Part shown: positions 9,271 through 45,837 of the stretch, piece after piece
Numbering within the stretch: the stretch's first letter is position 1
Layout of the letters: every line of letters starts with the position of its first letter
Origin: Rhizophagus irregularis
Lineage: Eukaryota
Assembly (NCBI RefSeq): GCF_026210795.1
Contig: NC_089433.1
Location: forward strand, 1,798,001-1,862,000
DNA: 64,000 bases
Direction: 5' to 3'
Made by a program: the position numbers and the translations under genes
Notes under the pieces: generated by a model
The model's input: the letters and a program-made list of their open reading frames with translations, nothing else
Databases searched by the model: none
Told to the model about the DNA's origin: nothing

Positions 9271-10013
9271 TTATATATAATTTTTTTTATAAAATATATA
9301 TATAAAAAAAACTAAAAAAACAAAAATTTTTGAAATAATGTATGGATAAAGCTATTATTATTTTTTTGTAATATTACAACTTATAAATATTTCTTATTAA
9401 TATTTCGTATATCTGTTCTGTGACTTTAGAGCGTAATTTAGGCACTTTAGTCAAAGGAAACATCTAAAATCTTCTTAAGTAAAGTTGTTCAGCAGATTCG
9501 AATCTACTTATATATAAATTTTTATCATGATTGAATAAATATTTATGGATTTATTCATGTTTTTGTAACGCCACCAATACGCGGAATTTTTATTTTTAAA
9601 ATTTACTGTAAAATTTGTCAAAAAAAATATTTTTAAAAAATTTTCTAAGTAAGAATAATGAAATAACTTTTATTGATTATTACAAAAATTATAGTGTAAA
9701 ATTATAAAAAACAGCAAAACACTTATTTTTTCCTTTCCACCCACCCGTTGCTCTTATTTTCAATATATATTTTTACTGTTACATGAACGCATGTATGATT
9801 TATAATTTTAATGTTATGCGGATACGTATTTGTTTTATCAAAAACATGTTACATGATCACGTCTAAAAATGATTCCTGTATTATGTATACAATTAACTTA
9901 TTCTTTGTATTAAAAATAGTAAATTTTTTTTACACAAACATGTTTATAACTTTGTTTACATATTTTATTAGATTTTTTTAATGTGAAAATGTAAATATAT
10001 ATTATATTATATA

Positions 10014-10911
10014 CAGTCAACTCCCTCTATAGTTACTCCCATTATAGTCACATTCTACTATATAGTCACACCAGTTGAATGTTCAAAACACTTTATTATT
10101 AAAATCTATCCTATATAGTCACAATCTATCTAAAAATCTTATATTAAAAAGAACCGTTTATAATCACAGTTATATAAAGAATATATTAAATAACTTGGCA
10201 TCTAATAATCGTACAAAGATGTATCATAGCTTGTTAGAATCGTCTCACTGAGACGAATCGAATGGTGGTAGTTTTATCCTTTTCCGATCACTGGCTGACG
10301 AGTTATTCAACAAAATGTTAAATATCGGCATTATAATATTTCTTGATTTACGTTTACTGCGCCATTTAACATTTTGCTAGATTTCTCAGTACCTAGTGAT
10401 TATAAAAAGACGATTTATAGCTCGTTGGAATCGCCTCATCGAGACGAATCGAATGGTGGTAAGCTCATCTCTCTGTGATCAATATTGATGGAGTTATTAC
10501 TTAAAAACTATTTAATATTTTTTTAATTTCATAAATTGATCTAGTGATTGGATTTCGATGTATCTTATACATTAGATTCGTCTCATCAAGACGAATCGAA
10601 TGGTAGTAAGATCGTCTTTCTAGGATCAATATTGGCAGAGTTATTACACAAAAACCATTAATATTTTTTTAATTTCGGAAATTAATCTAGTGATTGGATT
10701 TCGATGTATTTTATACCATTAGAACCGTCTCATCAAGACGAATCGAATGGCAGTAAGATCATCTCTCTACGATTGATATTGGCGAAGTTACGATACAATA
10801 AAGTTTTAAGTATAATTCTGGCTAAAATTATGTTAATTTTTGGCCGGAATTATGATATACAAATATAAGAAATTTTTTATATAGTCACATCTCTTTATAA
10901 TCACCAAATAA
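10014..10911. mobile_element. Tc1/pogo-type non-autonomous element hosting the LINE array; matching right TIR not found in window
   Basis: TA|CAGTCAACTCCCTCTATAGT terminus; repeated TATAGTCAC/TATAATCAC motifs at 10030-10150 and again at 10880-10905; four internal repeats with core CGTCTCATCRAGACGAATCGAATGGT near 10241, 10431, 10579, 10726. Confidence 0.7.
10897..10911 (+). repeat. 15-bp target/TSD ATAATCACCAAATAA (also 18917-18931, 29854-29868, 44926-44940, 45823-45837)
   Basis: Five identical copies, one in front of every unit of the array. Confidence 0.95.
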
Positions 10912-11054
10912 GGAGGATCATCGCAACTCTTTCCTGAATTTTTGAAAATACTAATAAAAATTTATTTTTGAAATTTTCGTTCGAAAATTTCTAAGTGCTC
11001 GTTCAAAATACTAATATTTCCACAGTTGCTTTCCTCTTTACTGAGCTTTATACT

Positions 11055-13179
11055 ATGACTACACCTCCAGCTCCTTCTGTTATTAACCCGGATATTCCGC
11101 CGCCACCGCGTCCTGTTGCTTCAACTCCCTCTGGAGACCGACCTTTATCTCCTACTAATACCGCTGGCGCGCCTAACAAACGTTCACGCGTTGTTTCTGA
11201 TGACGCTATGAATGTTGATATAACTTCACCTTCTGCTTCGGCTCCCAACCTTACTTCCACCGCTCCTTCAGGTCTTCCTGTCAACAAAGTCCAAGTGCTT
11301 ACATCTCCTCAAAATACTACCACTCCTGTTGAAACTGTTGACGCTTCTATCCATGCTCCCTCTAACACCAGCGGTAAAGGCAAAGCTGTCGCCTTTCGAT
11401 ATTCCAGAACGACGACCATCCCCCGATGGTAATGCTGCCGCTATAAAATCCGCCCCATCTCGTTATTATGCTGCGGCATATTTACGCGACGCGCCTGTCG
11501 CGTTCAAGACTAAATTTTCCACCAATCGCTCCATGTGTGACGAAGTGGATTGCTCACTCTCCCGATATTCCTCATATGGCACCCGCGCACGTTGTGATGG
11601 ATCAGGCGATAACAAGAAAATCCTTGTCTTCTTTTTTGATCAACAGGATTTTACCGATTGTGTCAGCTCCCCACGTGCCAATCTTCTTGATTTGGCCTTT
11701 AGTCATTACTCCCCTGCTGACGCCAAACTCAGTGATAAAATGAAGTCTTTGTTCGTCACTGATATCCCACTTTTCCTTACTGAGACTCAAGTCCGTCAGG
11801 CATTTTCCCGATATGGCACTGTAATTAAGTGTAAACTTACTCCTAGAAAGCATTACTACAATGGCCATATCCAGTTCTCCTCCGCGGATGCAGTTACCCA
11901 ATTCAATGATATCTGGGCGATCATTTGCCTTGGTAATTCTTTACGTGTCTGCCCGGCATCTTTCTCAAAAGCCCAACGTGATAGCTGCAGAGAACATGTT
12001 GCTATCCTTGCCGGCATCCCTAAGAATATTAAAGAAGCTGATCTGTTAGAAATCGCTACTCAAGTCAACGCTAAGGCCCTTAACGTCCCTTTGTCTATCA
12101 GTTCCTACAAACCTAAACCTTATGTATATTTGAATTTCTCCTCATTTGAATCCCTTGAAGCTGCCAAAGAAATGACCGTGGCTTTCCGCGGCAAAGGATT
12201 AACATGGCACCCTCCCAATGAAGCACAAACTTTATGCCATGTCTGTGGGCGTCCTGGTTGTTCTCCCTCTGTATGTAATCCACGTCCTACTGGAAAGCTG
12301 GACGATCGCCTTAACAAACTTTATTCTCGTTTTAATGCTGGACCTAGACGTGGTCGTCAGGATTCGCGCCAATCACGTGACAATTCCACTTCCCGTTCAA
12401 GATCGCGTTCCAACTCTAGATCCCGCAATAATAATTCCTCTTCATCCCGTTCCAACAACAACAATAATACTTCTAACACTTCTCGTCCCAATACTTCTCA
12501 AAATAACAACCGGAACAATACTAATACTAATAATCATAGGAACAATAAAAATTCTTCCGGTTCTACTCAACCTCCACACCAACCTCATTCTGTCAATTCT
12601 ACATCACCTACTTCTCCATCGGATAATTCTGCCCTTATGCTTCCTCAACATATTATTGATGAATTAAAGGCGCAGATTAAAGAGAATCGCCACTACCCTT
12701 AAATCTCTTGACGATACTGTCTCCTGGATGCAGGATACTATCACGAATCATGATTATAGAATTTCTGAGCTTGAATCAATGATGAATTATGATTGCGGTA
12801 ATCCCGGTGACTCAAATTTGTACCCACCTCACTGACGATCAAGAAACTCATTCCTATAATCATGGATGGGATGATACTCCAACCCAAGACACGAATTCTG
12901 GATTCAATCTTCCTCCCAATACCTCTTCTTCTCTTATGGACGTCTCTCCTGATGCTTCCTTCTCAGCCCTAGATCCTAGCTCCATCCTATCAAGACGACA
13001 TGTTCCCTTACCTGTCTCCCGACCCACTATTACCACTCCTGATGCTAACGCTTCTTCGTTTGCAATCAGAAATTTTTAATGTTACTACTACACAAAAGAA
13101 TCTTTCTGCTCAACTTGGTTCGATTATGGAAAAATTGGACTCCTTCTCTCCTTCAAAACCTTCCCCTTCCAATGATTGA
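11055..13179 (+). pseudogene. LINE ORF1 (two RRM-like domains, zinc knuckle, S/R/N-rich region, coiled coil), with small indels
   Basis: ORF pieces 10995-11432, 11329-12702 and 12789-13079 align with the continuous copy-2 ORF1; motifs SLFVTDIP...GHIQF, YVYLNF, CHVCGRPGCSPSVC. Confidence 0.85.
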
Positions 13180-16100
13180 ACACCAATTTATATCGGGTGC
13201 ATCACAGGGATTTCACCCCCCTAATAGTGCGATACTTAATAATGATAGTCCTAATATTCCGCCTTCTTCTTCCTTTTCTTCCCCTCTTATTAACTTTGGA
13301 CAAATCAATGTTAATGGATTATGTTCCCCTGTGCGACAATTACATTTGTTAAATTATTTTCTCCATTCTTCTTTTGGCGTTTTATCTTTAAATGATACTC
13401 GTCTTACTTCTTCGGTGCCAAATTTATTTATCAAAATGAACATTTCCAACATAATTTTAAGTCCTATTGGGCTCCTTCCCCTTCTAATTCACGACCTCAT
13501 GATGGTGTTGGTCTTTTACTTCGCCATCCTTTACATAAACATGTTCAGAAAATTGATCCTTGGAAAGGTCGTCTTTTAAAATTAGATCTTTTTTTCCATC
13601 AGACAAAAATTTCTATTATTTCTGTTTATATTCCTCCTTATCATTCGATTCATTATAAAGAACGTGATGCTATTTTTGCCCAACTTAATTTATGGCTTGA
13701 TAAAGCCCGCTCTAATAACTATCACGTAGTCATCCTTGGTGATTTTAATGCAGATGAAATTTCACATTCACATCTTCCTCAACATCATTTAAAAATTTTA
13801 CGATCACTTTCTTCTCGATACTTTACGGATCATCAATCCCATATTTCTTCAATTTCAGGTCCTAGTCCCACTTTTTATCATCAAAATGGTTCTTCAAGAC
13901 TTGATTATATTTGGTCATCTCCTGGATTTCCTGCTCCTGGTCTCTTCTCTCATGTTGAAACTTGTCCTAAGCTGAATGATAATCAATTTACTGATCACCG
14001 TGTACTTATAACGGCCTTTGATTTTAGCTCATGTTTCGCTATTTTATCCAAAGCTAGATTAAAGCAGAAAAGCGAACAGCGTACCATCTTTCTTTACAAA
14101 AATTTGAAAGATGATGTTTGGGAGACCTTTTCCAATGAAGTAAACTCGCGTCTTGAGTTGTATTTGACCACACACCATCCCTCTATATCTTCACTTTCAG
14201 CTATTTCATTGGACAAACTTTGGCACGCTCTTAAACGTTCTATTCTTGGTGGTGCCATTGATTCCTTACCATTTCAGCATGTATCCAATACTCACCATCA
14301 TAAATATCCTCCTGAGCTTACGATGCTTATTGCTATCAACAAATTCTTGGATAGATTATTGTTCAAATTGACCACGTCTCGGCTTAGTCGTCCAGCTCAA
14401 ATTTCACAGATGATTAATTCTTTGTCTACACAATTAACTCTTCTGAAATCTCTTTTAATAGATTATACTATACCTATTTATAGTACGACACCACTTCCTG
14501 CTTTTATCAAATTTTTGCGTTCGCAAAAAGCCTTGGTCTCTGCATATCTTTCTACGCAATTTCATCAACATCGTGTAGATTCCATTGAATATTATACCGC
14601 TCTTAGAGATGAACATTTCTCTACGTCTCCAGGCTCCTTTATTTCTTCAGCCCTATCAGTGGAACATCGTTCTATTGTTCTTGATAGAGTTTTGGTTGTA
14701 ATTGACTCCAAACCTACTTTACTTACTGATCCTTCAGATATTAAACAAGCTGCTATTAAACACTTCCAATCGGTAGTTACTCCTCCTTTGGTCCAATATT
14801 CTTCTACCGAATCATTTCCTCCACGTTGGCAGAGAGCATATACTCCTTTTTCTGACATTGATTCATCCTTATATACTTCGGTTATGTCTCCTATTCTGGC
14901 CAATGAATGGATGAACACTATCAACTCTATGCCTAATAATAAAGCCTCTGGTCCTTCCAAAATTTCCTATGAGATGCTCAAACATTTAACTGGCGAAGCT
15001 TTCAACTTATCCCTTATTTTAGCTAATGCCTGCCTCATCCATGGAGATATTCCTGCAGATTGGCGTGAAGCGCTTGTTTATCCCATTCCAAAGCCTCATG
15101 AATTTGACGCACAATTGAAGAATACGCGACCCATCACTTTATTGGAAACTGTACGAAAATGTGTGGTTAAGGTCGTTACAACTCGTCTTTCAAAAATCCT
15201 AGCTGACAACCAAGTGCTTCTAGGTGGTAATTTTGCTGGATTGCCAGGCGGTTCCACTGATATTCCTATTAAGATGCTTGATGCTATTATTCATCAACGA
15301 CGCTTTGACAAAACTGATGACCAAGGATTATGGATTGTTTCTCAGGACATTTCTAAGGCCTTTGACTCAATTGATTTAAACATGCTTAGACTTGCTTTAA
15401 TTCGTCTGCATATACCGTCTTTATTGATTAAATTTATCATCAACCTTTTTACAAGACGTAATAATAAAATTATTACCCATCATGGTGATACTTCTGGATA
15501 TAGAGTTAGAATCGGTATTGACCAGGGTGAAATCATTTCTCCATTATTATGGGTTATTTACTTGGATCCTTTGCTTACCACACTTAATCGAGAAGCTTGT
15601 GATCCTTTTATTTTGAAATCTTCTGCATTATTGGATTATTCTCCAATTGAATATGAACAACACAATCTTCCTGTTTCACATATTACATTTATGGATGATT
15701 CTACTTTAATTGCTTCATCTAAACGAGGAATTGAAGATCGCCTTTCCATTACTGCTGAATTTTATACTTTAAATAATACTCAAGCAAATTCAGCAAAATA
15801 TATACTTCTTTCTTCTGAACAATTTTCTCAAACTATTGTGTTTGATCTTTCTCCATCCCCTCTAATTACATCTCATACCCTTACTTTAAAGGCGTTAGCC
15901 TTATCTACATCTTTTCGTTTTTTAGGTGTTTGGTTTAACCTTTCGGCTTCTTCTCGTTTTGTTCACAACCAAACTGTTTCCATGGTCAAAGATATGGCTG
16001 CTTTACTTAGTCCGAAAAAGCTTTTGGCGCAACATGTGACTTACCTTTACAATATTGTTTTACTTCCGAGGCTTGAGTTTCGCCTACAATCCACATTATT

Positions 16101-18651
16101 TGCTGAATCCACTATTAATCGCATGGTTTCTCCAATGCTTTCCCTTATTCGTCAGAAGGCTGGTTTGGCCTCGGTCACTCCTCTTTCCGCGCTTTTTACT
16201 ATGCTGCCTTTCTCCATTCAGCAAGCGTTTGGTCGATTTTTATCATCTCATGTGGCTTCATGGCAGAAAATTTTTTCTCACCCTTCATATAAGCTTTTTG
16301 CCAATTATATGATTACCTATCTCCAAGGACTTTTGGATTGTGATGCCTGTCCCTCTACTATTGATTTGGAACCATGGTCCCATACCTTTTCCTTACGAAC
16401 ACATTCTTTGTTCAATTCTTTATTGTTCTCTTCTCGATTGAATATCACGTGGTCTTTATTGTTCCGACCTCCGAGGAAAGATTTACGACCGGCGATTCCA
16501 CTCCGGTCTATTTTACCAAATGATTTATTTACTTCCATGAAAAATGTTCGGAATAATTTCTGCACTCGTTTTCTTGCTCAACTGATTACACCATGTGGCT
16601 CTCGACTTCTTTCATGGAAAGATTTACACTTTCTTAAACGAGTATCGAACAAAGGATCTGTGCCTGCTTGGTTTAATTATTTGTTCAATCTTATTGTTAT
16701 TCCTAATTCACCTTCTTTTTTTATTTTACAACAATTTAGAATTCCTAGTTCTCATACTGTAGCTTCTATTTCCTTTATAGATATTAGTCGAAATTATTGG
16801 TTTAACCCTCAATGGGCTATTTCTTTTAATCGTAATACTAATTCTTTTCTCGTTGGCCGTGTGATTACTACCTATCCTGCTCCACGTAATGAAGCTCTCA
16901 TTTCACATTGGATTGCGTCTTCGGTTGATGACTTGCTTTCTGATTTTACTGCATGCCAAGGTTGTGCCTCTGCTCTCCCGCGATCCTCTACCTCTAAGAC
17001 GTTGCTTAAACGATGTCCTTCTGAAAAGTGCTTCTCATATGTGTCTTTATCAAGTTTGATCCGTTATCCGATGAAACCTCGAACTTACATACATGCGGAT
17101 ACTCGCTCGGTTTCACTTTCCGCCTCGTTAGGCTATGCCAAATCTCTTTTATTATTTCATCTTTTTGCTCCAGATCGGTTACCTTCTATGAATGAACAAA
17201 TGCCTAGGATTTCTGTTATCCAACTTCCTTCTTCGGTGTCTACACTTTATATTGATGGTTCCTTCCTCCCTCCTTCTAGTCATCCGGTATCCTCGATGGC
17301 TTATGCATGGACTGCTATAGATCCTGATGGATTTATTTTGGAATCCCACTATAATATTATTTCCTCCATTTTTCCTTCTGCTTTACGTTCAGAAGTTTTT
17401 GCTTTATTGCACGGATTGGACTCCCTTCCTCGGAATTCAAAGATTACTGTTGCCACTGATTGTGCCCAATTACTTTCTTTTTGGTCTTTATATGTGGATG
17501 CTCCCTTTCTTCCCAGAATGCTTAAAGAATCCAACCACCTTTTGTGGTCTTCCATACGCACTATTATGTTGCAAAAGAATCTGGATGTTACCTTGATCAA
17601 GGTCCCTGCTCATGCTGACGATCCTTTGAATAATCATGTGGATGCATTAGCCAAAGCCGCTCATACTGACTCACAGCTTTCCTCTTGTCCACCCTCGGCA
17701 TTGATGGCTCCTTGCATTTTACAATTTAATTCCTTACCTGTGGATATGAATATCCGGAAATTTATTAGAGATATTTTTGACGCCAAAAGTCTTTTAACTC
17801 TTGCTGTATTGCCAAGATTTAATTCCTATTCTTCAACTTCTGATATTGATTGGGCTTGCACCAAATTTTGTCTCAATAACAATAAGCAATTTGCCTCTCA
17901 CCGGAATGGTCGTTCCGAGTTTTGTGGATTCCGTATCAAATTACTATTAGATATGCTTCCAACGCTTACAACTCTTCAGAGACGAAAGCCTCACCTATAT
18001 AATCCGAGTTGGCTATGTCCGCAATGTAATTCTTTTCCTGAGACCTTAGACCACTTGTGGACTTGTCCTTATATCTTACCGGAGTTTAGCCCTTTAAATA
18101 CCTTCAAGACACTACTGTTAAATTTTCTGACTAATTGTCTTGATAAATTCCTTTCTGCATCATCTTTAATACCCTTACCGGACTCTTTTGCTGCTGATTT
18201 TATATCTCTTAATTGTTGGAATTGTGATCCTCCTTCAGTTTCTTGCCTACGACTCGCTAGAGGACTTATACCGACTTCTCTTGCAGAATTTCTTGGAACT
18301 TATTTCTCTCTACTTCTCATATGGTCTATCTTAGATACACCTTTGCATGACTTTCATTTTGACCTTTATGTTCAAATCTGGTTGTGCCGTTCTATTTTCT
18401 TTCATCATTGGGAATCAGCTCAAGGCATTACTAAAAAACTGAAATTATCAGCTCTTGGGTCTTCTTCTATTTCTTGCACTTCCTCTAACGTCCCTCCTGA
18501 TTCTTCGACACCTTCTCTGGCGACAGTTTCCTCGGATTCCTGGGTTTCTTGGGTTTCCTCTTCTATAATCCGTGGGGGATCTTGGATTTCACACTTGGAT
18601 TTTTGGCGCCGCTTAACAGTTCAGCCTCTACTTAGGACTTCTTTTTGGTAA
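13172..18651 (+). CDS. LINE ORF2: APE endonuclease, reverse transcriptase, RNase H, C-terminal CCHC; one frameshift near 13413
   Basis: EN motifs GQINVNGL, GVGLLL, GDFN, RLDYIW, TDH; RT motifs KASGP, RPITLL, DISKAFDSI, GIDQGEIISPLLW, FMDD, FLGV; RNase H LYIDGS, SEVFA, ATDC, AHADDPLNNHVDALAK; CPQC..ETLDHLWTC. Confidence 0.93.
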
Positions 18652-19332
18652 CGGATTGGATCTTCGGATATGCTGGATAGTTGACTCACACTGGCCTTCG
18701 GGTAAAGATGGGGTATGCGTTTCTGTAATAGTTTAGTTTTCTTTACTTAATTTTATTTTGTTTAGATTTCTTTACTTGTATGATTCGTGAAGCTAGTTCT
18801 TTTTATTTTTTATGTTTATTTTCTATATTTGATATTTGTAATATTGTTTGATTTGTTTATTGTACTTTTCGTTTAAAAATTAATAATAAAAGATAAAGTC
18901 ACAAGACTGTTTGCTCATAATCACCAAATAAGAGGATCATCGCAACTCTTTCCTGAATTTTTGAAAATACTAATAAAATTTATTTTTGAAATTTTCGTTC
19001 GAAAATTTCTAAGTGCTCATTTAAAATACTAACATTTCCCCAGTTGCTTTCCTCTTTACTGAGCTTTAAACTATGACTACACCTCCAGCTCCTTCTGTTA
19101 TTAACCCAGATATTCCACCACCACCACGTCCTGTTGTTTCTGCTCCCTCTGGAGACCGACCTTTATCTCCCACTAGTACCGCTGGTGCGCCTAATAAACG
19201 TACACGTACTGTCTCTGATGACGTGATGAATGTTGATATAACTTCGCCCTCAGCTCCTGCCCCTACCTTATTTCTACCGTTCCTTCTGGTCTTCCTGTCA
19301 ACAAAGTCCAAGTGATCACATCTTCTCAAAAT

Positions 19333-19695
19333 CACAGGTCGAAATTAGTTAAATAGGGTATCAATAGGTTATCAATAGGTTATCAATCGGCTATCAATAG
19401 GCTACCCTATTGGTAGCCTATTGAACTTGCGCCATAATCCGTCACCAATCAGGCAGGCTGATTGTTAGCCAATTAATAACCTATTGATAACCTATTAGTA
19501 TCCTATTGGTATTTTTATCAAATTGGTTATCAATAAGGTATTAATAGGTTATCAATAGGTTATCAATCAGCCTGCCCGATTGGTGACGGATTATGGCGCA
19601 AGTTCAATAGGCTACCAATAGGGTAGCCTATTGATAGCCGATTGATAACCTATTGATAACCTATTGATACCCTATTTAACTAATTTCAACCTGTG
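19333..19695. mobile_element. Fold-back MITE, CAC termini, 3-bp TSD (CACTA/CMC-like)
   Basis: AAT|CACAGGTCGAAATTAG...CTAATTTCAACCTGTG|AAT; ~130-bp near-perfect arms with TATCAATAGGT repeats; empty site visible in copy 1. Confidence 0.93.
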
Positions 19696-22600
19696 AATAT
19701 TACCACTCCGGTTGAAACTGTTGACGCTTCTATCTATGCTCTCTCTAACACCAGTGGTAAAGGCAAAGCTGTCGCCTTTGATATCCTAGAACGACGCCCA
19801 TCTCCTGATGGTAATGCTGCTGCTATCAAATCCACACCTTCTCGCTACCATGCTGCGGCCTATCTACGTGACGCGCCTGACACGTTCAAAGCTAAATTTA
19901 CCACCAATCGCTCCATGTGTGACGAAGTGGATTGCTCACTCTCCCGATATTCCTCTTATGGTGCTCGCGCACGCTGCGATGGCTCAGGAGATAACAAAAA
20001 GATCCTCGTCTTCTTTAATGATCAACAGGATTTCACCGATTGTGTCAGCTCCCCACGTGCTGATCTTCTCAATTTAGTCTTCACCCATTATTCCCCTGCA
20101 GATGCCAAACTCAGCGACGAAGAAAAGTCTTTGTTTATCACTGATATCCCACTTTTCCTAAATGAGACTCAAGTCTGCCAAGCATTTTTCCGATATGGCA
20201 CTGTAGTTAAGTGCAAACTTACTCCTAAGAAGCATTATTATAATGGACATATACAGTTTTCCTCCGCGGATGCAGTTACCCAATTTAATGATATTTGGGC
20301 GATCATTTGCCTTGGTAACTCTCTACGTGTCTGCCCGGCATCCTTTTCGAAATCCCAACGCGATAGCCACAGAGAACATGTCGCTATCCTTGCTGGCATT
20401 CCAAAGAACATTAAAGAAGCTGATTTGCTTGATATTGCTACTCAAGTCAATGCTAAGGCTCTTAACATTCCTCTATCTATTAATTCCTACAAACCTAAAC
20501 CCTATGTATATTTGAATTTCTCCTCATTCGAATCTCTTGAAGCTGCCAAAGAAATGACCGTGGCTTTCCGCGGTAAAGGATTAACATGGCACCCTCCCAA
20601 TGAAGCACAGATTTTATGCCACGTTTGTGAACGTCCTGGTTGTTCTCCTTCTGTGTGTAATCTTCGTACTACACGGAAAGTGGACGATCGCCTTAACAAA
20701 CTTTATTCTCGCTTTAATGCTGGCCCTAGACGTGGACGTCAGGATTCGTGCCAATCACGTGACTATTCCACCTCCCGTTCACGATCGCGATCCAATTCTA
20801 GATCTCACAATAATAATTCCTCTTCACCCCGTTCCAACAACAATAACAACAACAACAATAACACTAACACTTCCCATCCTAATACTTCTCGAAGTAGTAA
20901 CCGGTCCAACAATAATAACAATCTCCGGAACAATGGTAATTCCTCTGGTCCTACCCAATCTCCAGACCAACCTCATCCTATCAGTTCTACACCTACTTCG
21001 CCATCTGACAGCCCTGCTCATACACTTCCTCAACATGTTATTGATGAATTAAAGGCGCAGATCAAAGAGATTGCTACTACCCTTAAATCTCTTGATGAAA
21101 CTGTTTCCTGGATGCAGGATACTATTACAAATCATGATTATAGAATATCTGAACTCGAATCAATGATGAATTATGATAATAATAATCCGGGTGACTCAGA
21201 TTTGTACCCACCTCATAATTATCACGATAACCATTCTTATGATAATGGATGGGATGATATCCCAGCCAATGACACGAATTCTGGATTCAATCTTCCTCCT
21301 CATACTTCACCTTCTCTTATGGACACTTCTCCAGATGCTTCCTTTTCAACTCTGGATCCTAACTCTGTCCTATCGAGACGACATGTTCCCTTACCTAATT
21401 CTCGACCTACTATTATTGCCCCTGACGCTAATTCTTCCCGTCTACAATCAGAAATCTTTAATGTTACTAATACACAAAAGAATCTTTCTGCCCAACTTGG
21501 TTCGATTATGGAAAAATTGGACTCCTTCTCTCCTTCAAAACCCTCCTCTTCCAATGATTGAACACCAATTTATATCGGGTGTATCACAGGGATTTCACCC
21601 CCCTAATATTGCGATACCTAAATTTAATAATCCTAATAATCTCTCTTCTCCTTTTTCCCCCTTGTTAATTTTGGACAAATCAATGTCAATGGTTTATGTT
21701 CTCCTGTTCGACAACTGCATTTGTTAAATTATTTTCTCCATTTCTCCTTTGGCGTTTTATCTTTAAATGATACTCGCCTTACTTCTTCTGGTGCTAAATT
21801 CATTTATCATAATCAACATTCCCTATATAATTTTAAGTCCTATTGGGCTCCTTCTCCTTTTAATTCACGACCACATGATGGCGTTGGTCTTTTACTTCGC
21901 CATTCTTTACATAAACATGTTCAGAAGATCGATTCTTGGAATGGTCGTTTATTAAAACTAGATCTTTTTTTTCATCAAACAAAAATTTCTATTATTTCTG
22001 TCTATATTCCTCCTTATCATTCTATTCATTATAAAGAACGTAATGCTATTTTTGCTCAACTTAATTTATGGCTCGATAAAGCCTGTTCTAATAATTATCA
22101 TATAGTTATTCTTGGTGATTTTAATGCAGATGAAATTTCACATTCACATCTTCCTCAACATCATTTGAAAATTTTGCGATCACTTTCTTCTCAATATTTT
22201 ACGGATCATCAATCCCATATTTCTTTGATTTCCGGTTCTAGTCCTACCTTTTATCATCAAAATGGTGCTTCAAGGCTTGACTATATTTGGTCATCCCCTG
22301 GATTTCCTGCTCCCAGTCTTTTCTCTCAAGTTGAAACTTGCCCTAAGTTGAATGATAATCAATTTACCGATCACCGTGTACTTATAACGGCCTTTGATTT
22401 TAGCTCTTGTTTCGCTACTTTAGCTAAAGCTAGACTTAAACAGAAAAGCGAACAACGCACCATCTTTCTTTACAAAAATTTGAAAGAAGATACTTGGGAC
22501 AAATTTTCTAATGAAGTAAACTCACGTCTCGAGTTATATTTGACCACACACCACCCTTCGATATCTTCACTATCAGTTCTATCCTTAGACAAACTTTGGC

Positions 22601-25368
22601 ACGCTCTTAAACGTTCTATTCTTGGTGGTGCTATTGATTCTCTACCATTTCAACATGTATCCAATACCCATCACCATAAGTATCCTCCTGAACTTACGAT
22701 GCTTATTGCTATCAACAAATTCTTGGATAGATTATTGTTCAAATTGACCACTTCTCGGCCTAGTCGTCCTGCTCAAATTTCACAGATGATTAATTCTTTG
22801 TCTACACAATTAATTCTTCTCAAATCTCTTTTAAAAGATTATACTATACCTTTTTATAGTACAACACCACTTCCTGCCTTTGTCAAATTTTTGCGTTCAC
22901 AAAAGATTTGGTCTCAGCTTATCTTTCCACGCAATTTCATCAACATCGTGTAGATTCCATCGAATATTATACTGCTCTTAGAGATGAACATTTCTCTACA
23001 TCTCCGGACTCCTTTATTTCTTCAGCCCTATCAGTGGAATATCGTTCTATCGTTCTTAATAGAGTTTTGGTTGTCATTGACTCCAAACCCACATTACTTA
23101 CTGATCCTTCAGATATCAAACAAGCTGCCATTAAACACTTCCAATCGGTTGTTACTCCTCCTTTGATCCAATATTCTTCTATTGACGAATTTTCTTCACG
23201 TTGGCAAAGAGCATATACTCCTCTTTCTGATATTGATTCGTCATTATATGACTCGGTTTTGTCTCCTATTCTGGAAGATGAATGGAAGAGTACTCTCAAT
23301 TCTATGCCTAATAATAAAGCCTCTGGTCCTTTCAAGATCTCTTATGAGATGCTGAAACATTTAACTGGCGGAGCTTTTAATTTGTCTCTTATTTTAGCTA
23401 ATGCCTGCCTTAACCAAGGCGATATCCCTGCTGATTGGCGTGAAGCGCTTGTTTATCCCATCCCAAAGCCTCATGAATTTGATGCTCAATTAAAGAATAC
23501 GCGACCTATCACTTTATTGGAAACTGTACGGAAATGCGTGGTTAAAGTCGTTACAACTCGACTTTCAAAAATTCTAGCTGACAACCAAGTGCTTCAAGGT
23601 GATAATTTTGCTGGATTGCCAGGCGGTTTCACTGACATTTCTATTAAGATGCTTGATGCTATTATTCATCAACGACGTTTTGACAAAACTGATGACCAAG
23701 AATTATGGATTGTTTCTCAGACATCTCTAAGGCCTTTGACTCAATTGATTTAAACATGCTTAGACTGGCTTTAATTCGTCTGCATATACCGTCTTTATTG
23801 ATCAAATTTATTATTAACCTTTTTACAAGACGTAATAATAAAATTATTACACATCATGGTGATACTTCTGGATATAGAGTTAGAATTGGTATTGACCAAG
23901 GTGAAATCATTTCTCCATTATTATGGGTTATTTACTTGGATCCTTTGCTTACTACACTTAATCGAGAAGCTTGTGATCCCTTTATTTTGAAATCTTCTGC
24001 ATTATTGGATTATTTTCCCATTGAATATGAACAACATAATCTTCCTGTTTCGCATATTACATTTATGAATGATTCTACTTTAATTGCTTCATCTAAACGA
24101 GGAATTGAAGATCGCCTTTCCATTACTGCTGAATTTTATACTTTAAATAATACACAAGCAAATTCAGCAAAATATATCCTTCTTTCTTCTGAACAATTTT
24201 CTCAAACTATAGTGTTTGATCTTTCTCCCTCTCCTCTAATTTCATGTCCTACTCTTACTTTAAAAGCGTTAGCTTTATTCACCTCTTTCCGTTTTTTAGG
24301 TGTTTGGTTCTGTCTTTCGGCTTCTTCTCGTTTTGTTCATAACCAAACCACTTCCATGGTTAAAGACATGGTCGCTCTTCTCAGTCCCAAAAAACTTTTG
24401 GCATAACATATAGCTTATCTTTATAATGTTGTCCTACTTCCGAGGCTAGAATTTCGCCTACAAACCACATTATTTGCAGAATCTACCATTAATCGCATGG
24501 TTTCTCCAATGCTTTCCCTTATTCGACAGAAGGCTGGTCTTGTTTCAGTCACTCCTCTCTCTGCGCTTTTCACTTTGTTACCATTTTCAATCCAACAAGC
24601 ATTTGGTCGATTTCTTTCATTCCATGTGGCTTCATGGCAGAAAATTTTTTCTCACCCTTCATATAAACTTTTTGCCAATTATATGATTACTTATCTCCAA
24701 GGTTTTTTGGACTGTGATGCCTGTCCTTCTACTATTGACCTGGAACTATGGTCCCATACCTTTTCCTTGCGAACACATTCTTTGTTCAATTCTTTATTAT
24801 TCTCTTCTCGTTTAAATATCACGTGGTCTTTATTGTTCCGATCTCTGAGGAAAGATTTACGTCTGGTGATTCCACTCCGGTCTATTTTACCAAAAGATTT
24901 ATTTCCTTCCATGAAAAATGTTCGGAAAAATTTCTGCACTCGTTATCTCGCCCAATTGATTACACCGTATGGCTCTCGACTTCTCTCATGGAAAAATTTA
25001 CGTTTCCTTAAACGAGTATCAAAAAAGGATCTGTACCTGCTTGGTTTAATTATTTATTTAATCTTATTGTTATTCCTAATTCTATTTCTTTGTTTGTTTT
25101 ATCACAATTTAGAATTCCTATTTCTCATACTGTAGCTTCTATTTCTTTTATAGACATTAGTCGTAATTATTGTTTAACCCTCAATGGGCTATTTCTTTCA
25201 ATCGTAATACTAACTCTTTTCTTGTTGGCCGTGTAATCACTATTTATCCTGCTCCACGTAACAAAGCTCTTATCTCGCATTGGATTGCAACTTCGGTTGA
25301 TGATTTGTTTTCTGATTTCTCAGCATGCCAAGGATGTGCTTCTGCTATCCCGCGATCCTCTACCTCTA

Positions 25369-27938
25369 CATCAGGAAGTCACGGGAAAAATGTTTATTAC
25401 ATGTACATTTTTGTAGATCATGTATATTATAATATTCATTATTTTAAATTAACATGTAATATTTAACATTAATGAGCATCATCAATGAGATTTTTATCAT
25501 GATGTGCAGCATTAAATAATGATAATTCAATATTTATCAAATTTATAATTTTTTATATTAGTGCACTAGTCAAAATAGACCATGATCTACGATTAGACAT
25601 TGGTCAAATAGTGCACTAATTAAAACGTCACGCGTTACGCATATTAAAAGTTTAAAAAAGGATCATCATCTTTTTTTAAACTTTTCATTCTCTTTCATCC
25701 TTCCCCTATCATCCTTCCTTTCCCCCCTTCCCTTCCTTTATCTTCCTTTCCTTTCCCTTTGTCCCTCCCTCCCTTTCGTCCTTCCCTTCCCCCTTTTCTC
25801 ACGCCTCTTTTTCTTGGAAGTAATGTAAGTTTCATTTCGAAACTTACATATTTTTTTTTAATTTATTTTTTTTTTAATTTAAAAAACAACTTAACATTTC
25901 TTATTGTTATTTTTTTGTAGGACGCGCACTAGGAGGACGCCAGCTTGAATACTACGAAACCGGACTTTAGGTAGTGAGAAATGGGAAAGGGGAAGAGATT
26001 TTTGTTATTTTATTTTAAGAAACGAACTAACGTTTCTTTTTGTTATTCTTTTTTTGTAGGACGTGCACTAGGAAGACGCTGGCTTGAATACTACGAAACT
26101 GGACTTTAGGTAGTGATAAATGGGAAAGGGGGGAGATTTTTGTTGTTTTTAATTTAAGAAACGAACTAATGTTTCTTTCATTATTTTTTTTTTTATAGAA
26201 CAAGGACGCCGGCTTGAATACGAAACCAGACTTTAAGGTAAAAAACTGGAAAGGGGGGATTGGAGGAAGGGGACTTGAACTAAGATTCGTAAGAATCTTG
26301 GTTTTATTTATTTTTTTTTATTATTTTAGAATAGTTACTAATAACCGTTCTTTTCTTTTTAGATTTCGGATGGACTTCCGATTTTTGGAAAAGGAGAAAC
26401 CAAGATTCGTAAGTACGTACGAATCTTGGTTTTTTATTTTTATTTTTTATTATTACGAACGGTTACTAATAACCATTTTTTTTTGTTTAGGTTCGGATGG
26501 GCTTCCGAATTCCAAAGAATGGAAGACTAAAGATTCGTAACGGTAAGTACAAATTTTTTTTTATTTTTTATTTTATGGAACGGTTTACTAACCGTTCCTT
26601 TCTTTTTTTTTATAGGTTTGGTGAGCTTCTGACGAACGGAAACCAAGATTCGTAAGAATCTTGGTATTTTTTTTTTATTTTATAGAACGGTTTACTAACC
26701 GTTCCTTTCTTTCTTTTATAGGTTCGGTGGGCTTCTGACAAACGGGGAACCAAGATTCGTACGAATCTTGGTTTTTATTTATTTTTTTTATTATTATGGA
26801 ACGGTTTACTAACCATTCCTTTTTTTATTTTTATAAGTTCGGTGTCTCAGAAGAATGGAAAAACCTAAAGATTCGTAAGTACTAGTACGAATCTTTTGGG
26901 TTTTTTTTATTTTTTTTAATATTACGAACAGTTACTAACCGTTTTTTTCTTTTATTTTTTTTTTATAGGATTGGGTGGTCTTCCGAAGAACGGAAAATAA
27001 TAAACTGAGGTTCGTAAGTATTTTACTACAAACTTTAGGATTTTTTTAATATTACGAACGGTTTATTAACCGTTCTTTCTTTCTTTTTTTTAGAGGATCA
27101 GGTGGATTTCTAAAGATCGGAAAAAGGAGAACTAAGGTTCGTAAGTATTATATTACGAACCTTAGATTTATTTTTTTTTAATGCTATGAATGGTTCTAAC
27201 CATTCTTTTTGTTTTATTTTTTAGATTTCGGGTAGGCCTCCAATCTTCGGATAAAGTGGAACCAAGATTCATGAGTACGAATCTTGGTTTGTTTATTATT
27301 TTTTTTTTTAAATATTATGGAACGGTTACTATTTACTAACCGTTCTTTTTCTTTTTTTTAGGTCTCAGGTGAATTTTCGAAGAATGAAACAAGAAGATCA
27401 AGATTTGTAAGTATATACAAATCTTAACGGAACGGATTAGTAAGTTTCGAAGTTTTACTTCAAAACTTTTTTTAAAATTTTTTTTTAAATTAATTTTTTT
27501 ATTAATTCTTTTTTTATCTTTTTATTGTTAGGTTGTACTTCTTGAACAAGTTTCGAAGAATAACTGAACTTCAAACCTTTTTTTGTAGGTCACGGAGTAT
27601 TTAGTTAATTAATATAAAGATTGTAAGTTTCGTTGCGAAGCCTACTGTCTTTTTTTCATTTTCTTTAACAGTTGTTACTTTTAATAATAGAAAAATTTAG
27701 CTAATATTATTGTTATAGTGTATTTAATAAAATAAATTCAATAATATTATAAATTTAATATGATGTTTATTATCTTTAAATAATGTACATCGTTAATAGA
27801 CATTAAAATTAGGTGATGCACATCGAATATTATGACATCGGTAGTACATTGCAGGGTCCGATGTTCAGCGTTTCTTTATAATGTACATCAAATGACCGAT
27901 GTACATTTGATAAACATTTTTCCCGTGACTTCCTGATG
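25369..27938. mobile_element. Non-autonomous TIR element A (TA TSD) carrying a micro-exon/intron array
   Basis: 29-bp perfect TIR CATCAGGAAGTCACGGGAAAAATGTTTAT; TA duplicated relative to empty site TACCTCTAAGAC in other copies; no transposase ORF. Confidence 0.93.
25690..27735 (+). ncRNA. Putative multi-exon non-coding transcription unit (about 14 micro-exons)
   Basis: CT-rich leader, then repeated donor (GTAAG/GTAG) - branch (CTAAC/CTAAT) - poly-T - YAG units; AATAAA near 27726. Confidence 0.55.
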
Positions 27939-30900: not shown

Positions 30901-33649
30901 TGTCTGCCCGGCATCTTTTTCAAAATGCCAACATGACAGCCGTAGAGAATATGTTGCTATTCTTGCCAGCATTCCAAAAAATATTAAAGAAGCCGACCTT
31001 TTTGAAATTGCTAATCAAGTTAATGCTAAAGCCCTTAACGTCCCACTATCTATTAACTCTTACAAGCCTAAACCCTACGCATACTTGAATTTTTCTTCAT
31101 TTGACACTCTAGAAGCTGTAAAAGAAATGACCGTAGCTTTCCATGGCAAAGGGTTGATATGGCACCCTCCCAATGAAGCACATACTTTATGCCATGTTTG
31201 TGGGCGTTCTGGTTGTTCACCTTCTGTTTGTAGTCCTTGTCCTACACGAAAAGTGGATGATCACCTTAACAAATTATATTCACGCTTCAATGCTGGTTCT
31301 TGACGTGGTCATCAGAATTCACGCCAACCGCGTGATAAATCCAATTCCCGTTCACGATCGCGATCTAATTCCAGATTTCGCAATCCATCTTCTTCATTCC
31401 GATCTAATAACAGTAATAACCGTACTAATAATACTCGTCCTGATACTTCTCGTAGTAACAACTGAACCAACAGCAATAATAATAATAACATTCCCAATAA
31501 CAATGGTTATTCTTCCGGTTCTATTCAACCTCCACCTGAGCCTCGTCCTAATAATTCTACTACACATATCTCTTCTTCTGACAATTCTGCTTATACACTT
31601 CTTCAACATATCATTGATGAGTTAAAGGCGCAGATTAAAGAGATTGCTACTACCCTCAAATCTCTTGATGAAACGGTCTCCTGGATGCAGGATACTATCA
31701 CGAATCATGATTATAGAATTTCTGAGCTCGAATCAATGATGAATTATGATAGCGGTAATCCTGGTGACTCAGATTTGTACCCACCTCATGATGATCAAGA
31801 AACTCATTCCTATAATAATGGATGGGATGATGCCCCAACCCAGGACACGAATTCAGGATTCAACCTTCTTCCTCATACTGCACCCTCTCTTATTGATACT
31901 TCTCCTGATGCTTCTTTTTCTACTTTGGATCCTAACTCTGTCTTATCACGACGACATGTCCCCTTACTTAACTCTCGACCTACTATTATTGCCCCTGATG
32001 CTAATGCTTTCCGTCTGCAATTGGAAATTTCTAATGTTACTAATACCCAAAAGAATCTTTCTGCCCAACTTGGTTCGATTATGAATAAGTTGGACTCCTT
32101 CTCCCCCTCAAAACCTTCCCCTTCTAATGATTGAACACCAACTTGATTTGGGTGATTTACAGGGACTTCACCCCCCTGACAGTGTGTTACCTGATAGTCT
32201 TAATAGCAAGATCCCTTCCTTTTCTCCTTCCCCTCTTATTAATTTTGGACAAATCAATGTTAATGGTTTATGTTCCCCTGTTAGACAATTGCACTTGTTA
32301 AATTATTTCTTGCATTCCTCATTTGGTGTTTTATCTCTAAATGATACTCGTCTTACTTCATCTAGTGCTAAATTTATTTATCAAAATGATCATTCCCAGT
32401 ATAATTTTAAGTCCTATTGGGCTCCTTTCCCTTCTAATTCATGACATCATGATGGTGTTGGTCTTTTACTTCGCCATCCTTTACATAAACATGTTCAGAA
32501 AATTGATCCCTGGAAAGGTCGTCTTTTAAAATTAGATCTTTTTTTCCATCAAACTAAAATTTCTATTATTTCAGTTTATATTCCTCCTTATCATTCTATT
32601 CATTATAAAGAACGTGATGCTATTTTTGCTCAACTTAATTTATGGCTTGATAAAGCCCGCTCTAATAACTATCACGTAGTCATCCTTGGTGATTTTAATG
32701 CAGATGAATTTTCACATTCACATCTTCCTCAACATCATTTAAAAATTTTACGATTACTTTCTTCTCGATATTTTACGGATCATTAATCCCATATTTCCTC
32801 AACTTCAGGTCCTAGTCCTACCTTTTATCATCAGAATGGTTCTTCACGACTTGATTATATTTGGTCATCCCCTGGATTTCCTGCTCCTGGTCTTTTCTCT
32901 CAAGTTGAAACTTGTCCTAAGCTGAACGATAATCAATTTACTGATCACTGTGTACTTATAACGGCCTTTGATTTTAGTTCTTGTTTCGCTACTTTAGCTA
33001 AAGCTAGATTAAAGCAGAAAAGCGAACAACGCACCATTTTTCTCTACAAGAATTTAAAAGAAGATATTTGAAAAACATTTTCCAATGAAGTAAACTCACG
33101 TCTTGAGTTGTATTTGACCACACACCATCCCTCTATATCTTTACTTTCAGCTCTTCCTTTGGACAAACTTTGGCACGCTCTTAAACGTTCTATTCTTGGT
33201 GGTGCCATTGACTCTCTACCATTTCAACATGTATCCAATACTCACCATCATAAATATTCTCCTGAGCTTACTAAGCTTATTGCTATCAACAAATTTTTGG
33301 ATAGATTATTGTTTAAATTGACCACATCTAGGCCTACACTGGTCAAAATCAATTCTATCGGGTACATATCGGGTACCTATATATCGGTGGCTAATCGGAT
33401 AAGTATCGGGTATTTTTACATATCGGGTACCCGATAGCTAAGCTATTAGTCACTGATATTGTATATCGGGCATTGATCTATCTTACACATATCAGGTACC
33501 CGATATGTAAATTTTAATACGTAAGATTTTTATTTTGTACAACGTACTGTATTATATATAATCCGTTTCAACTAAAATTTTTTATTTAAATTCATTTTTT
33601 AGATAATTTTTATAAATAATTTTCTAAGAAATTTTAAAAGTCCATTTGA

Positions 33650-45822: not shown

Positions 45823-45837
45823 ATAATCACCAAATAA

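What the first reader, a model, noticed from the sequence alone, without database searches (positions are those of the whole stretch)
10014..10911. The retrotransposon target lies inside a DNA-transposon subterminal motif
Seen: the first 15-mer sits in TATATAGTCACATCTCTTTATAATCACCAAATAA, built from the same TATA(G/A)TCAC motif repeated beside the left TIR at 10014. Known: Xenopus Tx1L is an APE LINE that targets a DNA-transposon-like element. Inference: this LINE uses a dispersed MITE family as a safe harbour, possibly at a transposase-binding repeat. I know of no fungal precedent.
Basis: partly seen in the sequence, partly recalled or inferred. Interest (0 to 1): 0.8.

Follow-up and report, generated by a model that had tools for sequence, protein, structure and literature searches.

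The report
Site-specific fungal LINE inside a MITE
In this Rhizophagus irregularis window a LINE retrotransposon sits four times head-to-tail, with one unrelated 882-base element, always at the same 15-base site of a very abundant non-coding repeat that is likely a miniature DNA transposon, so the LINE likely uses that repeat as a harmless landing pad, as Tx1 elements do in frogs and crocodilians.

Summary
All 8 TATARTYAC motifs of the 64-kb window lie in 10028-10904. The 15-mer ATAATCACCAAATAA (10897-10911) overlaps the last motif. It recurs exactly at 18917, 29854, 44926 and 45823. These five 15-mers bound three full-length LINE copies, a non-coding 882-bp element and a 5'-truncated LINE.

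The LINE has an RRM ORF1 and an APE-RT-RNase H ORF2. It is 98% identical to Rhizophagus irregularis proteins. Its closest solved relatives are human L1 ORF2p and L1-EN.

Public-run contigs show that 10014-10911 is a very high-copy repeat. Unoccupied copies carry one 15-mer (exact, or 14 of 15). About 16 nt further on they carry the inverted motif GTGACTATAAAGAGAGT. That 17-mer matches the reverse complement of the left terminus at 14 of 17 positions. Its last 6 nt could not be seen.

The site-specific LINE and the dispersed host repeat are well supported. Three points remain open. The TIR/MITE nature of the host is probable, not proven. Transposase binding is untested. A genome-wide table of LINE flanks could not be made, because no genome is held.

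This is the Tx1L/Tx1D and Tx1-Mar/Mariner-N4_AMi strategy, apparently undescribed in fungi. I rate it a new member of a known kind, of moderate interest.

The parts
10012..10013 (.). TA directly left of the repeat's terminus. It is a possible target-site duplication of the host element, seen on the left side only.
   Evidence: The right flank was not seen.
10014..10036 (+). Left terminus of the host repeat, CAGTCAACTCCCTCTATAGTTAC (TIR-like).
   Evidence: Summed contig depth rises from about 15.6k (9953-10003) to 50k (10004-10054) and 204k (10055-10105) in run X1.
10028..10167 (+). Left subterminal cluster of five direct TATARTYAC motifs (10028, 10043, 10061, 10114, 10159).
10212..10822 (+). 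Internal tandem repeats of the host repeat, about 147-190 bp per unit and about 4 units.
   Evidence: (family D7).
10880..10904 (+). Two more direct motifs, TATAGTCAC at 10880 and TATAATCAC at 10896. The second overlaps the first 8 nt of the 15-mer.
10897..10911 (+). First copy of the 15-mer ATAATCACCAAATAA. It is the target site and the left target-site duplication.
   Evidence: Unoccupied copies of the repeat carry it once.
10912..18916 (+). LINE copy 1 (8005 nt). It has an ORF1 region with RRM and a CX2CX4CX4C knuckle, and a 1751-codon open frame with APE (part), RT and RNase H. There is no poly(A); the 3' end is ...CTGTTTGCTC.
18917..18931 (+). Second copy of the 15-mer.
18932..29853 (+). 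LINE copy 2, interrupted by TIR elements at 19333-19695 and 25369-27938.
29854..29868 (+). Third copy of the 15-mer.
29869..44925 (+). LINE copy 3, interrupted by a 7057-bp TIR element at 33337-40393.
44926..44940 (+). Fourth copy of the 15-mer.
44941..45822 (+). 882-bp non-coding element (48% G+C) with no sequence similarity to the LINE, bounded by two 15-mers. It is likely a passenger or non-autonomous retroelement that uses the same site.
   Evidence: Its 3' end is seen beside the 15-mer in 5 contigs of X1.
45823..45837 (+). Fifth copy of the 15-mer.
45838..47554 (+). 5'-truncated LINE copy 4 (about LINE positions 5692-7427). It starts directly after the 15-mer.
47554..47669 (-). Inverted 116-nt LINE fragment (LINE positions 7425-7540). 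This is the rearrangement that removes the array's right end and the right part of the host repeat.

Best explanation
A Rhizophagus irregularis APE-type LINE lies repeatedly at one fixed 15-16-bp site (ATAATCACCAAATAA, perhaps plus G) inside a very high-copy non-coding repeat that is likely a non-autonomous TIR DNA transposon (MITE), and it is predicted to get there by sequence-specific target-primed reverse transcription. Shown directly: five exact 15-mers bound three full-length LINE copies, one 5'-truncated copy and one unrelated 882-bp element, all in one orientation. Unoccupied copies of the host repeat in public runs carry a single 15-mer. The 15-mer overlaps a TATA(A/G)TCAC motif. That motif is found nowhere else in the window but in this repeat, and it appears inverted about 16 nt beyond the 15-mer in unoccupied copies. 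Inferred steps: (1) The LINE's APE domain nicks the bottom strand at the left edge of the 15-mer, reading 5'-GGTGATTAT^AAAGAG-3' on that strand. (2) The freed 3'-OH primes cDNA synthesis on the poly(A)-less 3' end of the LINE RNA. (3) The top strand is cut 15-16 nt to the right, which duplicates the 15-mer. (4) Each insertion therefore rebuilds the site on both sides, and later insertions build a head-to-tail array. (5) Landing in thousands of non-coding repeat copies would spare host genes. (6) The motif may be the binding site of the host element's transposase. This last step is the least supported.
For: LINE identity: RVT_1 at 2.5e-16 and RNase_H at 1.7e-06 in the long frame, and RRM_1 in ORF1. 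Exo_endo_phos at 2.7e-10 in copy 2. 98% identity to R. irregularis proteins. A profile of the family hits human L1 ORF2p at 8e-76 and L1-EN at about 1e-30.

Fixed site: 5 exact 15-mers, each at a junction. The 5'-truncated copy starts right after a 15-mer, so the 15-mer is target sequence and not part of the LINE.

Separate insertions rather than local duplication: the copies are 88.8-90.3% alike overall but 96-99% alike in the first 150 nt and 94.7-97.3% in the last 150 nt. An element with no sequence similarity to the LINE shares the site.

Host repeat: it is held by 20 of 24 listed runs from 13 studies. In X1, 12714 contigs lay on 9800-11300. Summed depth is 213k at 10875-10879 against 6k at 10915-10919 in X1, and 527k against 51k in X3.

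Unoccupied copies: loose ends behind 10914 read CTGTCCCAAATGTGTGACTATAAAGAGAGT (3 contigs in X1; 5 in X3, ending ...GAGAAT). Loose ends behind 10910 read TAAACTGTTCCAAATATGTGACTATAAAGA (8 contigs in X1; 6 in X3, with one letter different). Both contain GTGACTATA, the exact reverse complement of the motif. The 17-mer GTGACTATAAAGAGAGT matches the reverse complement of 10020-10036 at 14 of 17 (my comparison).

Other loci: a loose end TCACCAAATAT lies before the LINE 5' end, in 2 contigs in each of X1 and X3. It fits an insertion into the second subfamily, whose 15-mer ends in T.

Context: three other TIR elements in the window have 3-bp AAT, TA and TA duplications. The two larger ones (TA duplications) carry internal tandem repeats and the hairpin element carries 11-bp repeats.
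Against: Only one locus could be read in full. The array's right end is lost, so the right duplication next to the host sequence is not seen in the window.

The right TIR is seen only as 17 letters of a 30-letter consensus. Its extra similarity beyond the 9-nt motif is 6 of 8 (about p = 0.01 by my estimate). The same extended motif, CTCTTTATA(A/G)TCAC, also occurs internally at 10890-10903. The inverted copy may therefore be a subterminal repeat and not the terminus. Loose ends in X3 run on for a median of 128 letters, which may mean the repeat extends further.

None of the 16 pieces listed in table 8 (of 1084 laid) has 31 or more letters on both sides of the host-LINE junction. Sixteen loose-end rows were not shown. 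The share of LINE copies that lie in this repeat was therefore not measured.

No transposase, no autonomous partner and no empty-versus-filled site of the host repeat itself was seen.

No LINE copy here is intact. Copy 1 needs at least 5 frame changes against the 2475-aa protein P0009.

The runs may include the sample the window was assembled from.
Confidence: 0.7

Rival explanations
1. The host repeat is not a DNA transposon. It would be a mosaic or a satellite-like repeat: a terminal piece, a 147-bp satellite and a small palindromic unit. The LINE is still site-specific, but its target is simply an abundant 15-mer in repetitive DNA.
For: Only a left TIR-like end is seen. Summed depth varies about five-fold along 10055-10920. 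Variant loose ends at 10132, 10570 and 10609 show many sub-variants and alternative joints. The inverted motif after the 15-mer pairs with the internal direct motif at 10890-10903 (13 of 14 complementary by my reading). That pattern could define a small palindrome of its own.
Against: All 8 TATARTYAC motifs of the window lie in this one 877-bp span and link the left end to the target region. The terminus TA|CAGT... resembles the other TA-flanked TIR elements with internal tandem repeats in the same window. The orientation of the motif switches after the 15-mer, as expected for a right end.
Confidence: 0.22
2. The array arose from a single chance insertion followed by tandem duplication or unequal crossing-over of the unit 'LINE + 15-mer'. 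The LINE would then have no real site specificity.
For: All five 15-mers lie in one array at one locus. Head-to-tail arrays can arise by unequal exchange.
Against: The copies differ by 10-11% inside but only 1-5% at their ends. This is the pattern of diverged active lineages and not of decay in place. A 5'-truncated copy and an 882-bp element with no sequence similarity to the LINE are bounded by the same 15-mer. Public contigs show the LINE 5' end behind a variant 15-mer ending in T, which fits the second subfamily of the repeat. They also show junction contigs that differ from the window at 2-5 of 60-71 letters.
Confidence: 0.05
3. The 15-mer is part of the LINE itself, as a terminal direct repeat, and is not duplicated target DNA.
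For: Every full-length copy is bounded by it on both sides.
Against: Unoccupied copies of the host repeat carry the 15-mer without any LINE. The 5'-truncated copy, which lacks 5.7 kb of its 5' part, still has the 15-mer directly at its start. An unrelated element is bounded by it too.
Confidence: 0.03

Closest known systems
Tx1L in Tx1D (Xenopus laevis)
   Same: It is an APE-type LINE with a sequence-specific endonuclease. It integrates at one site of an abundant non-autonomous DNA transposon, which does little harm to the host (PMC1950540 passages; PMC4494074 passages; PMC6719617 passage). The host element here also carries internal tandem repeats. That Tx1D does too is my recollection and comes from no call.
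   Different: The host is a fungus (Glomeromycota), not a vertebrate. Tx1D is called a piggyBac-type element, whereas the host repeat here has a TA|CAGT... terminus that looks Tc1/mariner-like. The LINE here carries an RNase H domain. The duplication is 15-16 bp; the length of Tx1L's duplication was not checked in any call. Specific nicking by the endonuclease was shown for Tx1L and not here.
Tx1-Mar LINEs and SINEU in Mariner-N4_AMi; Tx1-9_AMi in Harbinger transposons (crocodilians)
   Same: These are LINE families that insert preferentially into one family of DNA transposon. A non-autonomous element (SINEU) shares the target and is thought to be mobilised by the LINE (PMC4494074, abstract, passages and section 15). 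Here the 882-bp element shares the 15-mer site with the LINE.
   Different: The 882-bp element has no snRNA or tRNA head that Rfam or ARAGORN can find. It has no detectable similarity to the LINE. Its mobilisation by the LINE is only inferred. The kingdom is different. The clade of the LINE here is not established.
R1-clade target-specific LINEs (R1Bm in 28S rDNA, TRAS/SART in telomeric repeats)
   Same: They are APE-type, have a fixed target, have no need for poly(A), and form arrays in repeated targets (PMC4640811 passages; PMC1950540 passages). 'LINE R1' is listed among the R. irregularis repeats (PMC8647823 passage).
   Different: The profile of this family finds L1-EN at about 1e-30. The R1Bm and TRAS1 endonuclease structures are not among the best 60 hits. 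This points to the L1/Tx1 group and away from R1. The target here is a mobile element, not a host gene or a telomere.
Fungal telomere-targeting LINEs (FoTeR of Fusarium; MoTeR of Magnaporthe, recalled)
   Same: They are fungal non-LTR elements with a fixed repeated target and head-to-tail arrays. FoTeR was seen in the search listing and abstract only. MoTeR is recalled.
   Different: They target telomere repeats and, as I recall, use a restriction-like endonuclease. Here the endonuclease is an APE domain and the target is an interspersed repeat.

Membership tests
Target-specific APE-type non-LTR retrotransposon | Encodes an apurinic/apyrimidinic-like endonuclease and a reverse transcriptase. 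| tested here: met
   Exo_endo_phos at 2.7e-10 and Exo_endo_phos_2 at 5.1e-10 in copy 2. RVT_1 at 2.5e-16 in copy 1. The family profile hits L1-EN at about 1e-30 and L1 ORF2p at 8e-76.
Target-specific APE-type non-LTR retrotransposon | Separate copies lie at the same sequence with a duplication of constant length and sequence. | tested here: met
   There are five exact 15-mers at five junctions, including a 5'-truncated copy. The copies are diverged lineages. This was fully read at one locus only. Contigs from public runs add a junction with a variant 15-mer.
Target-specific APE-type non-LTR retrotransposon | Unoccupied target sites carry the duplicated sequence once. | tested here: met
   Loose ends behind 10910 and 10914 in X1 (8 + 3 contigs) and X3 (6 + 5 contigs) continue from a single 15-mer into host-repeat sequence.
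Target-specific APE-type non-LTR retrotransposon | Most or all genomic copies are at the target. | not testable with these tools
   No genome is held. The read laying tables were cut: 16 loose-end rows were not shown, and no listed piece has 31 letters on both sides.
Target-specific APE-type non-LTR retrotransposon | The endonuclease nicks the target specifically. | not testable with these tools
   This needs a biochemical assay.
Tx1 clade (L1 group) | The RT falls inside the Tx1 clade in a phylogeny with reference elements. | not tested
   No named reference LINE sequences could be obtained. The cluster names were uninformative. The only hint is that the best solved relatives are L1 ORF2p and L1-EN, not R1Bm or TRAS1 EN. 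LINE/L1-Tx1 families are reported in R. irregularis (PMC11075540 passage).
Tx1 clade (L1 group) | Domain set APE-RT-CCHC without RNase H. This description of the clade is recalled. | tested here: inconclusive
   RNase_H is present at 1.7e-06. A C-terminal CX2CX8HX4C-like motif is visible in P0001. Whether RNase H excludes the Tx1 clade rests on recall.
MITE / non-autonomous TIR DNA transposon (Tc1/mariner-like) | Terminal inverted repeats at both ends. | tested here: inconclusive
   The left terminus is at 10014. In unoccupied copies a 17-nt stretch matches its reverse complement at 14 of 17, but the outermost 6 nt lie beyond the 30-letter consensus. No right terminus is in the window.
MITE / non-autonomous TIR DNA transposon (Tc1/mariner-like) | Constant flanking duplication (TA). 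| tested here: inconclusive
   TA is seen on the left only, in a TA-rich flank.
MITE / non-autonomous TIR DNA transposon (Tc1/mariner-like) | Short, non-coding, and in many dispersed copies. | tested here: met
   No ORF of 120 aa or more starts inside 10014-10911 other than the LINE-side one at 10995. Thousands of contigs of 85-100% likeness lay on it in four runs. It is held in 13 studies. Dispersal as such is inferred from the many variants, not from mapped loci.
MITE / non-autonomous TIR DNA transposon (Tc1/mariner-like) | An autonomous partner with the same termini that encodes a transposase. | not testable with these tools
   No genome is held.

The most novel reading that the evidence does not exclude
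A fungal L1/Tx1-like LINE has evolved an endonuclease that reads the transposase-binding-type motif at the inner edge of a MITE's terminal palindrome. The thousands of MITE copies thereby become a genome-wide safe harbour, which the LINE shares with an unrelated 882-bp passenger RNA. This would be an independent, cross-kingdom re-invention of the Tx1L/Tx1D strategy. It would also be a natural site-specific integration system in arbuscular mycorrhizal fungi.
Probability: 0.25. Interest if true: 0.75.

Novelty: new member of a known kind. Interest (0 to 1): 0.55.

Why it matters
Target-specific APE LINEs that live inside other transposons are documented in vertebrate Tx1-clade elements (PMC4494074, PMC1950540). 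A case in Glomeromycota would show that the 'transposon inside a transposon' niche is used across kingdoms. It would also give a second, distant endonuclease-target pair for studying how APE domains gain long-sequence specificity. About half of the R. irregularis genome is repeats, and two thirds of these were long unclassified (PMC11075540 abstract). Knowing that one LINE family nests in one MITE family would explain part of the nested repeat structure and improve annotation. It is my recollection that stable transformation of these fungi is lacking. If so, a retroelement with a defined 15-bp landing site in a harmless multicopy repeat is a candidate starting point for targeted integration.

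Tried and rejected
1. The whole genome of the window is not held, so the proposed census of all MITE and LINE copies could not be run.

2. A metagenome-contig scan with a 21-nt stretch spanning the 15-mer gave 3 loci. On inspection all three were unrelated chance matches.

3. Scans of viral contigs and of genome contigs for host-repeat sequences found nothing.

4. The earlier findings of this scan, searched by place, sequence and words, held nothing.

5. Rfam found no family at gathering score in the window. Only an E = 0.13 hit lies near the 882-bp element. ARAGORN found no tRNA.

6. Folding the left end as DNA (z = -0.86) and the 882-nt element as RNA (z = 0.08) gave no structural signal.

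7. I tried to name the LINE clade through 50%-identity representatives and their cluster names. This gave only 'exonuclease III/ribonuclease HI' labels from metagenomes.

8. Searching the PDB with the single protein gave RT hits only. A profile was needed to reach the endonucleases.

9. Christensen et al. 2000 (PMC85248) is not held. The supplement of PMC11075540 holds only expression counts per superfamily.

10. The idea that LINE copy 1 is intact is rejected. It has a stop at 11221-11223 in the frame of the first ATG and needs at least 5 frame changes against P0009.

11. The first read-laying run did not list the loose ends at the junction among its best rows. Only the second, narrower call did.

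Full report
What is in the window

The window is A+T-rich eukaryotic DNA. The long reading frame at 13396-18651 is 98% identical to proteins of Rhizophagus irregularis DAOM 197198. The source is therefore this arbuscular mycorrhizal fungus or a very close relative. No whole genome is held for the window.

At 10012-10036 the sequence reads TA|CAGTCAACTCCCTCTATAGTTAC. To its right lie five direct copies of TATA(G/A)T(C/T)AC, at 10028, 10043, 10061, 10114 and 10159. Then come four units of a 147-190-bp tandem repeat (10212-10822). Two more direct motif copies follow at 10880 and 10896.

The exact 9-mer TATAGTCAC occurs 4 times in 64 kb against 0.41 expected, and 0 of 100 shuffles reach 4. All 8 matches to TATARTYAC in the window fall in 10028-10904.

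The 15-mer and the array

The last motif overlaps the 15-mer ATAATCACCAAATAA (10897-10911). This 15-mer occurs exactly five times, at 10897, 18917, 29854, 44926 and 45823. A self-comparison and the printed junctions show what lies between the five copies:
- LINE copy 1 at 10912-18916 (8005 nt).
- LINE copy 2 at 18932-29853, carrying two inserted TIR elements.
- LINE copy 3 at 29869-44925, carrying one inserted TIR element.
- An 882-bp non-coding element at 44941-45822.
- A 5'-truncated LINE at 45838-47554.

After the truncated LINE comes an inverted 116-nt LINE fragment, and then unrelated DNA. The right end of the array and the right part of the host repeat are thus missing from the window. 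No right TIR is found.

The LINE

It has three recognisable features:
- An ORF1 region with an RRM and a CX2CX4CX4C knuckle.
- A long frame with an APE endonuclease, a reverse transcriptase and RNase H.
- A poly(A)-less 3' end...CTGTTTGCTC.

A profile of the family finds human L1 ORF2p (8e-76) and L1-EN (about 1e-30) as the best solved relatives. The R1Bm and TRAS1 endonucleases are not among the best 60. This hints at the L1/Tx1 group. No phylogeny with named references could be made.

No copy here is intact. Copy 1 needs at least five frame changes against the 2475-aa R. irregularis protein P0009.

Is the 15-mer a target-site duplication?

Three facts say it is:
- The 5'-truncated copy, which lacks 5.7 kb, still begins directly after a 15-mer.
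- An element with no similarity to the LINE is bounded by the same 15-mer.
- Unoccupied copies of the host repeat carry the 15-mer once (see below).

The array is unlikely to be a local duplication. The four copies are 88.8-90.3% alike overall, but 96-99% alike in the first 150 nt and 94.7-97.3% in the last 150 nt. That is the pattern expected of diverged active lineages whose ends are constrained, and not of decay in place.

The host repeat elsewhere

The stretch 10014-10911 is held by 20 of 24 listed public runs from 13 studies. These include three coded organisms and rhizosphere and soil metagenomes. Four runs were laid on 9800-11300 at 85% likeness. Between 2992 and 12714 contigs lay on it per run. 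Summed depth rises near 10014 and falls about ten- to thirty-fold at the LINE junction. These depths are not copy numbers. They do show that the repeat's words far outnumber the LINE's.

A second, narrow lay on 10845-10965 showed the unoccupied copies:
- Behind 10914, contigs go on with CTGTCCCAAATGTGTGACTATAAAGAGAGT (3 contigs in X1; 5 in X3, ending ...GAGAAT).
- Behind 10910, contigs go on with TAAACTGTTCCAAATATGTGACTATAAAGA (8 contigs in X1; 6 in X3, with one letter different).

These are two subfamilies of one sequence. The first carries the exact 15-mer followed by GGA. This explains the extra G before LINE copy 1. The second carries a 15-mer that ends in T.

Both continue, 16-17 nt after the 15-mer, with GTGACTATA, the exact reverse complement of the motif. 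The 17-mer GTGACTATAAAGAGAGT matches the reverse complement of 10020-10036 at 14 of 17 positions (my comparison).

The outermost six letters and the flank lie beyond the 30-letter limit of the consensus. The median loose length of 39 letters in X1 fits an end about 39-40 nt after the 15-mer. The median of 128 in X3 does not.

There is a further caveat. The extended motif CTCTTTATA(A/G)TCAC also occurs internally at 10890-10903. The inverted copy could therefore be a subterminal repeat and not the terminus. Either way, the 15-mer sits where the motif switches from direct to inverted orientation. It lies between two arms that are 13 of 14 complementary.

LINE copies at other loci

The evidence here is thinner:
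- A loose end TCACCAAATAT lies directly before the LINE 5' end, in 2 contigs in each run. It fits an insertion into the second subfamily.
- Junction contigs differ from the window at 2-5 of 60-71 letters. None has 31 letters on both sides.
- Five X1 contigs show the 3' end of the 882-bp element next to the 15-mer, so that element is repeated at this site too.

The metagenome scan gave only chance matches. The viral and prokaryotic collections held nothing.

Mechanism (inferred)

1. The APE domain nicks the bottom strand at the left edge of the 15-mer.
2. The 3'-OH primes reverse transcription of the LINE RNA.
3. The top strand is cut 15-16 nt to the right.
4. Each insertion rebuilds the 15-mer on both sides, so repeated insertion makes head-to-tail arrays.

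An array can grow by insertion at an outer 15-mer alone. It is therefore not shown that the 15-mer suffices without the flanking repeat sequence.

That the motif binds a transposase is an analogy to subterminal repeats of other TIR elements. It is untested.

Comparison with what is known

- Tx1 of Xenopus inserts into Tx1D, a non-autonomous piggyBac-type transposon, and its endonuclease nicks the site specifically (PMC4494074 and PMC1950540 passages).
- Crocodilian Tx1-Mar families insert into Mariner-N4_AMi together with SINEU elements.
- Tx1-9_AMi inserts about 300 bp inside Harbinger transposons (PMC4494074, section 15).
- Reported target-specific APE LINEs belong to the Tx1 and R1 clades (PMC4640811 passage).

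The two R. irregularis TE surveys list LINE R1, L1-Tx1 and other families. They have no occurrence of 'target site' in their main text (PMC8647823 and PMC11075540, term searches). My searches for fungal or Rhizophagus target-specific non-LTR elements found only telomere-associated cases and nothing of this kind. The library lacks most subscription journals, so absence from print is not proven.

Verdict

Three points are unproven: the complete right TIR, the transposase link, and the share of LINE copies at this target. This is a new member of a known kind, in a new kingdom, and of moderate interest.

Noticed in passing
window 44941-45822: An 882-bp element with 48% G+C and no ORF above 72 aa, bounded by two copies of the LINE's 15-mer. 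It has no similarity to the LINE, no Rfam or tRNA match, and no fold signal. It contains a B-box-like GGTTCGATTCC and an internal duplication (...GGTGGTC(A/G)CT...ATACCACTTGGGG...). Its 3' end is seen beside the 15-mer in 5 contigs of run X1. It may be a non-autonomous partner of the LINE.
   Followed up: partly
window 19333-19695: A 363-bp hairpin element inside LINE copy 2. Its arms are 176 nt long and 93% complementary and are built of 11-bp repeats (GGTTATCAATA-like). Its termini are CACAGGT...ACCTGTG and it is flanked by a 3-bp duplication, AAT.
   Followed up: partly
window 25369-27938: A 2570-bp non-coding TIR element inside LINE copy 2. Its inverted termini are about 29 bp long (CATCAGGAAGTCACGGGAAAAATGTTTAT...). 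It has a TA duplication and internal tandem repeats of 107-139 bp.
   Followed up: partly
window 33337-40393: A 7057-bp non-coding TIR element inside LINE copy 3. Its termini are CACTGGTCAAAATCAAT... and it has a TA duplication. It carries a 3.5-kb satellite (periods 81, 242 and 484 bp at 33735-37212) with strong G-over-C skew (+0.57), plus further 122-bp and 237-bp repeats.
   Followed up: partly
window 47554-47669: At LINE position 7427 the truncated copy jumps to an inverted 116-nt piece (positions 7540 to 7425) and then to unrelated DNA. This is a small inverted duplication at the break that removed the array's right end.
   Followed up: no
window 10912-18916 versus 18932-44925: The first and last 150 nt of the LINE copies are 95-99% alike, while the interiors are about 89% alike. 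This suggests constrained 5' and 3' cis-acting ends. C and G positions differ more often than A and T (0.11-0.18 against 0.07-0.11).
   Followed up: partly
window 48100-49800: A run of short units that each end in ...cctacaaaa / ...ctacaaaa(a), with 'ttcg(aa/tt)' motifs, on an A-rich strand. It looks like a degenerate tandem family and was not analysed.
   Followed up: no
window 9800-10013: The left flank of the host repeat is itself repeated in the public runs (summed depth 2.5k-15.6k in X1, with many contigs). The host repeat therefore probably sits inside another repeat.
   Followed up: no
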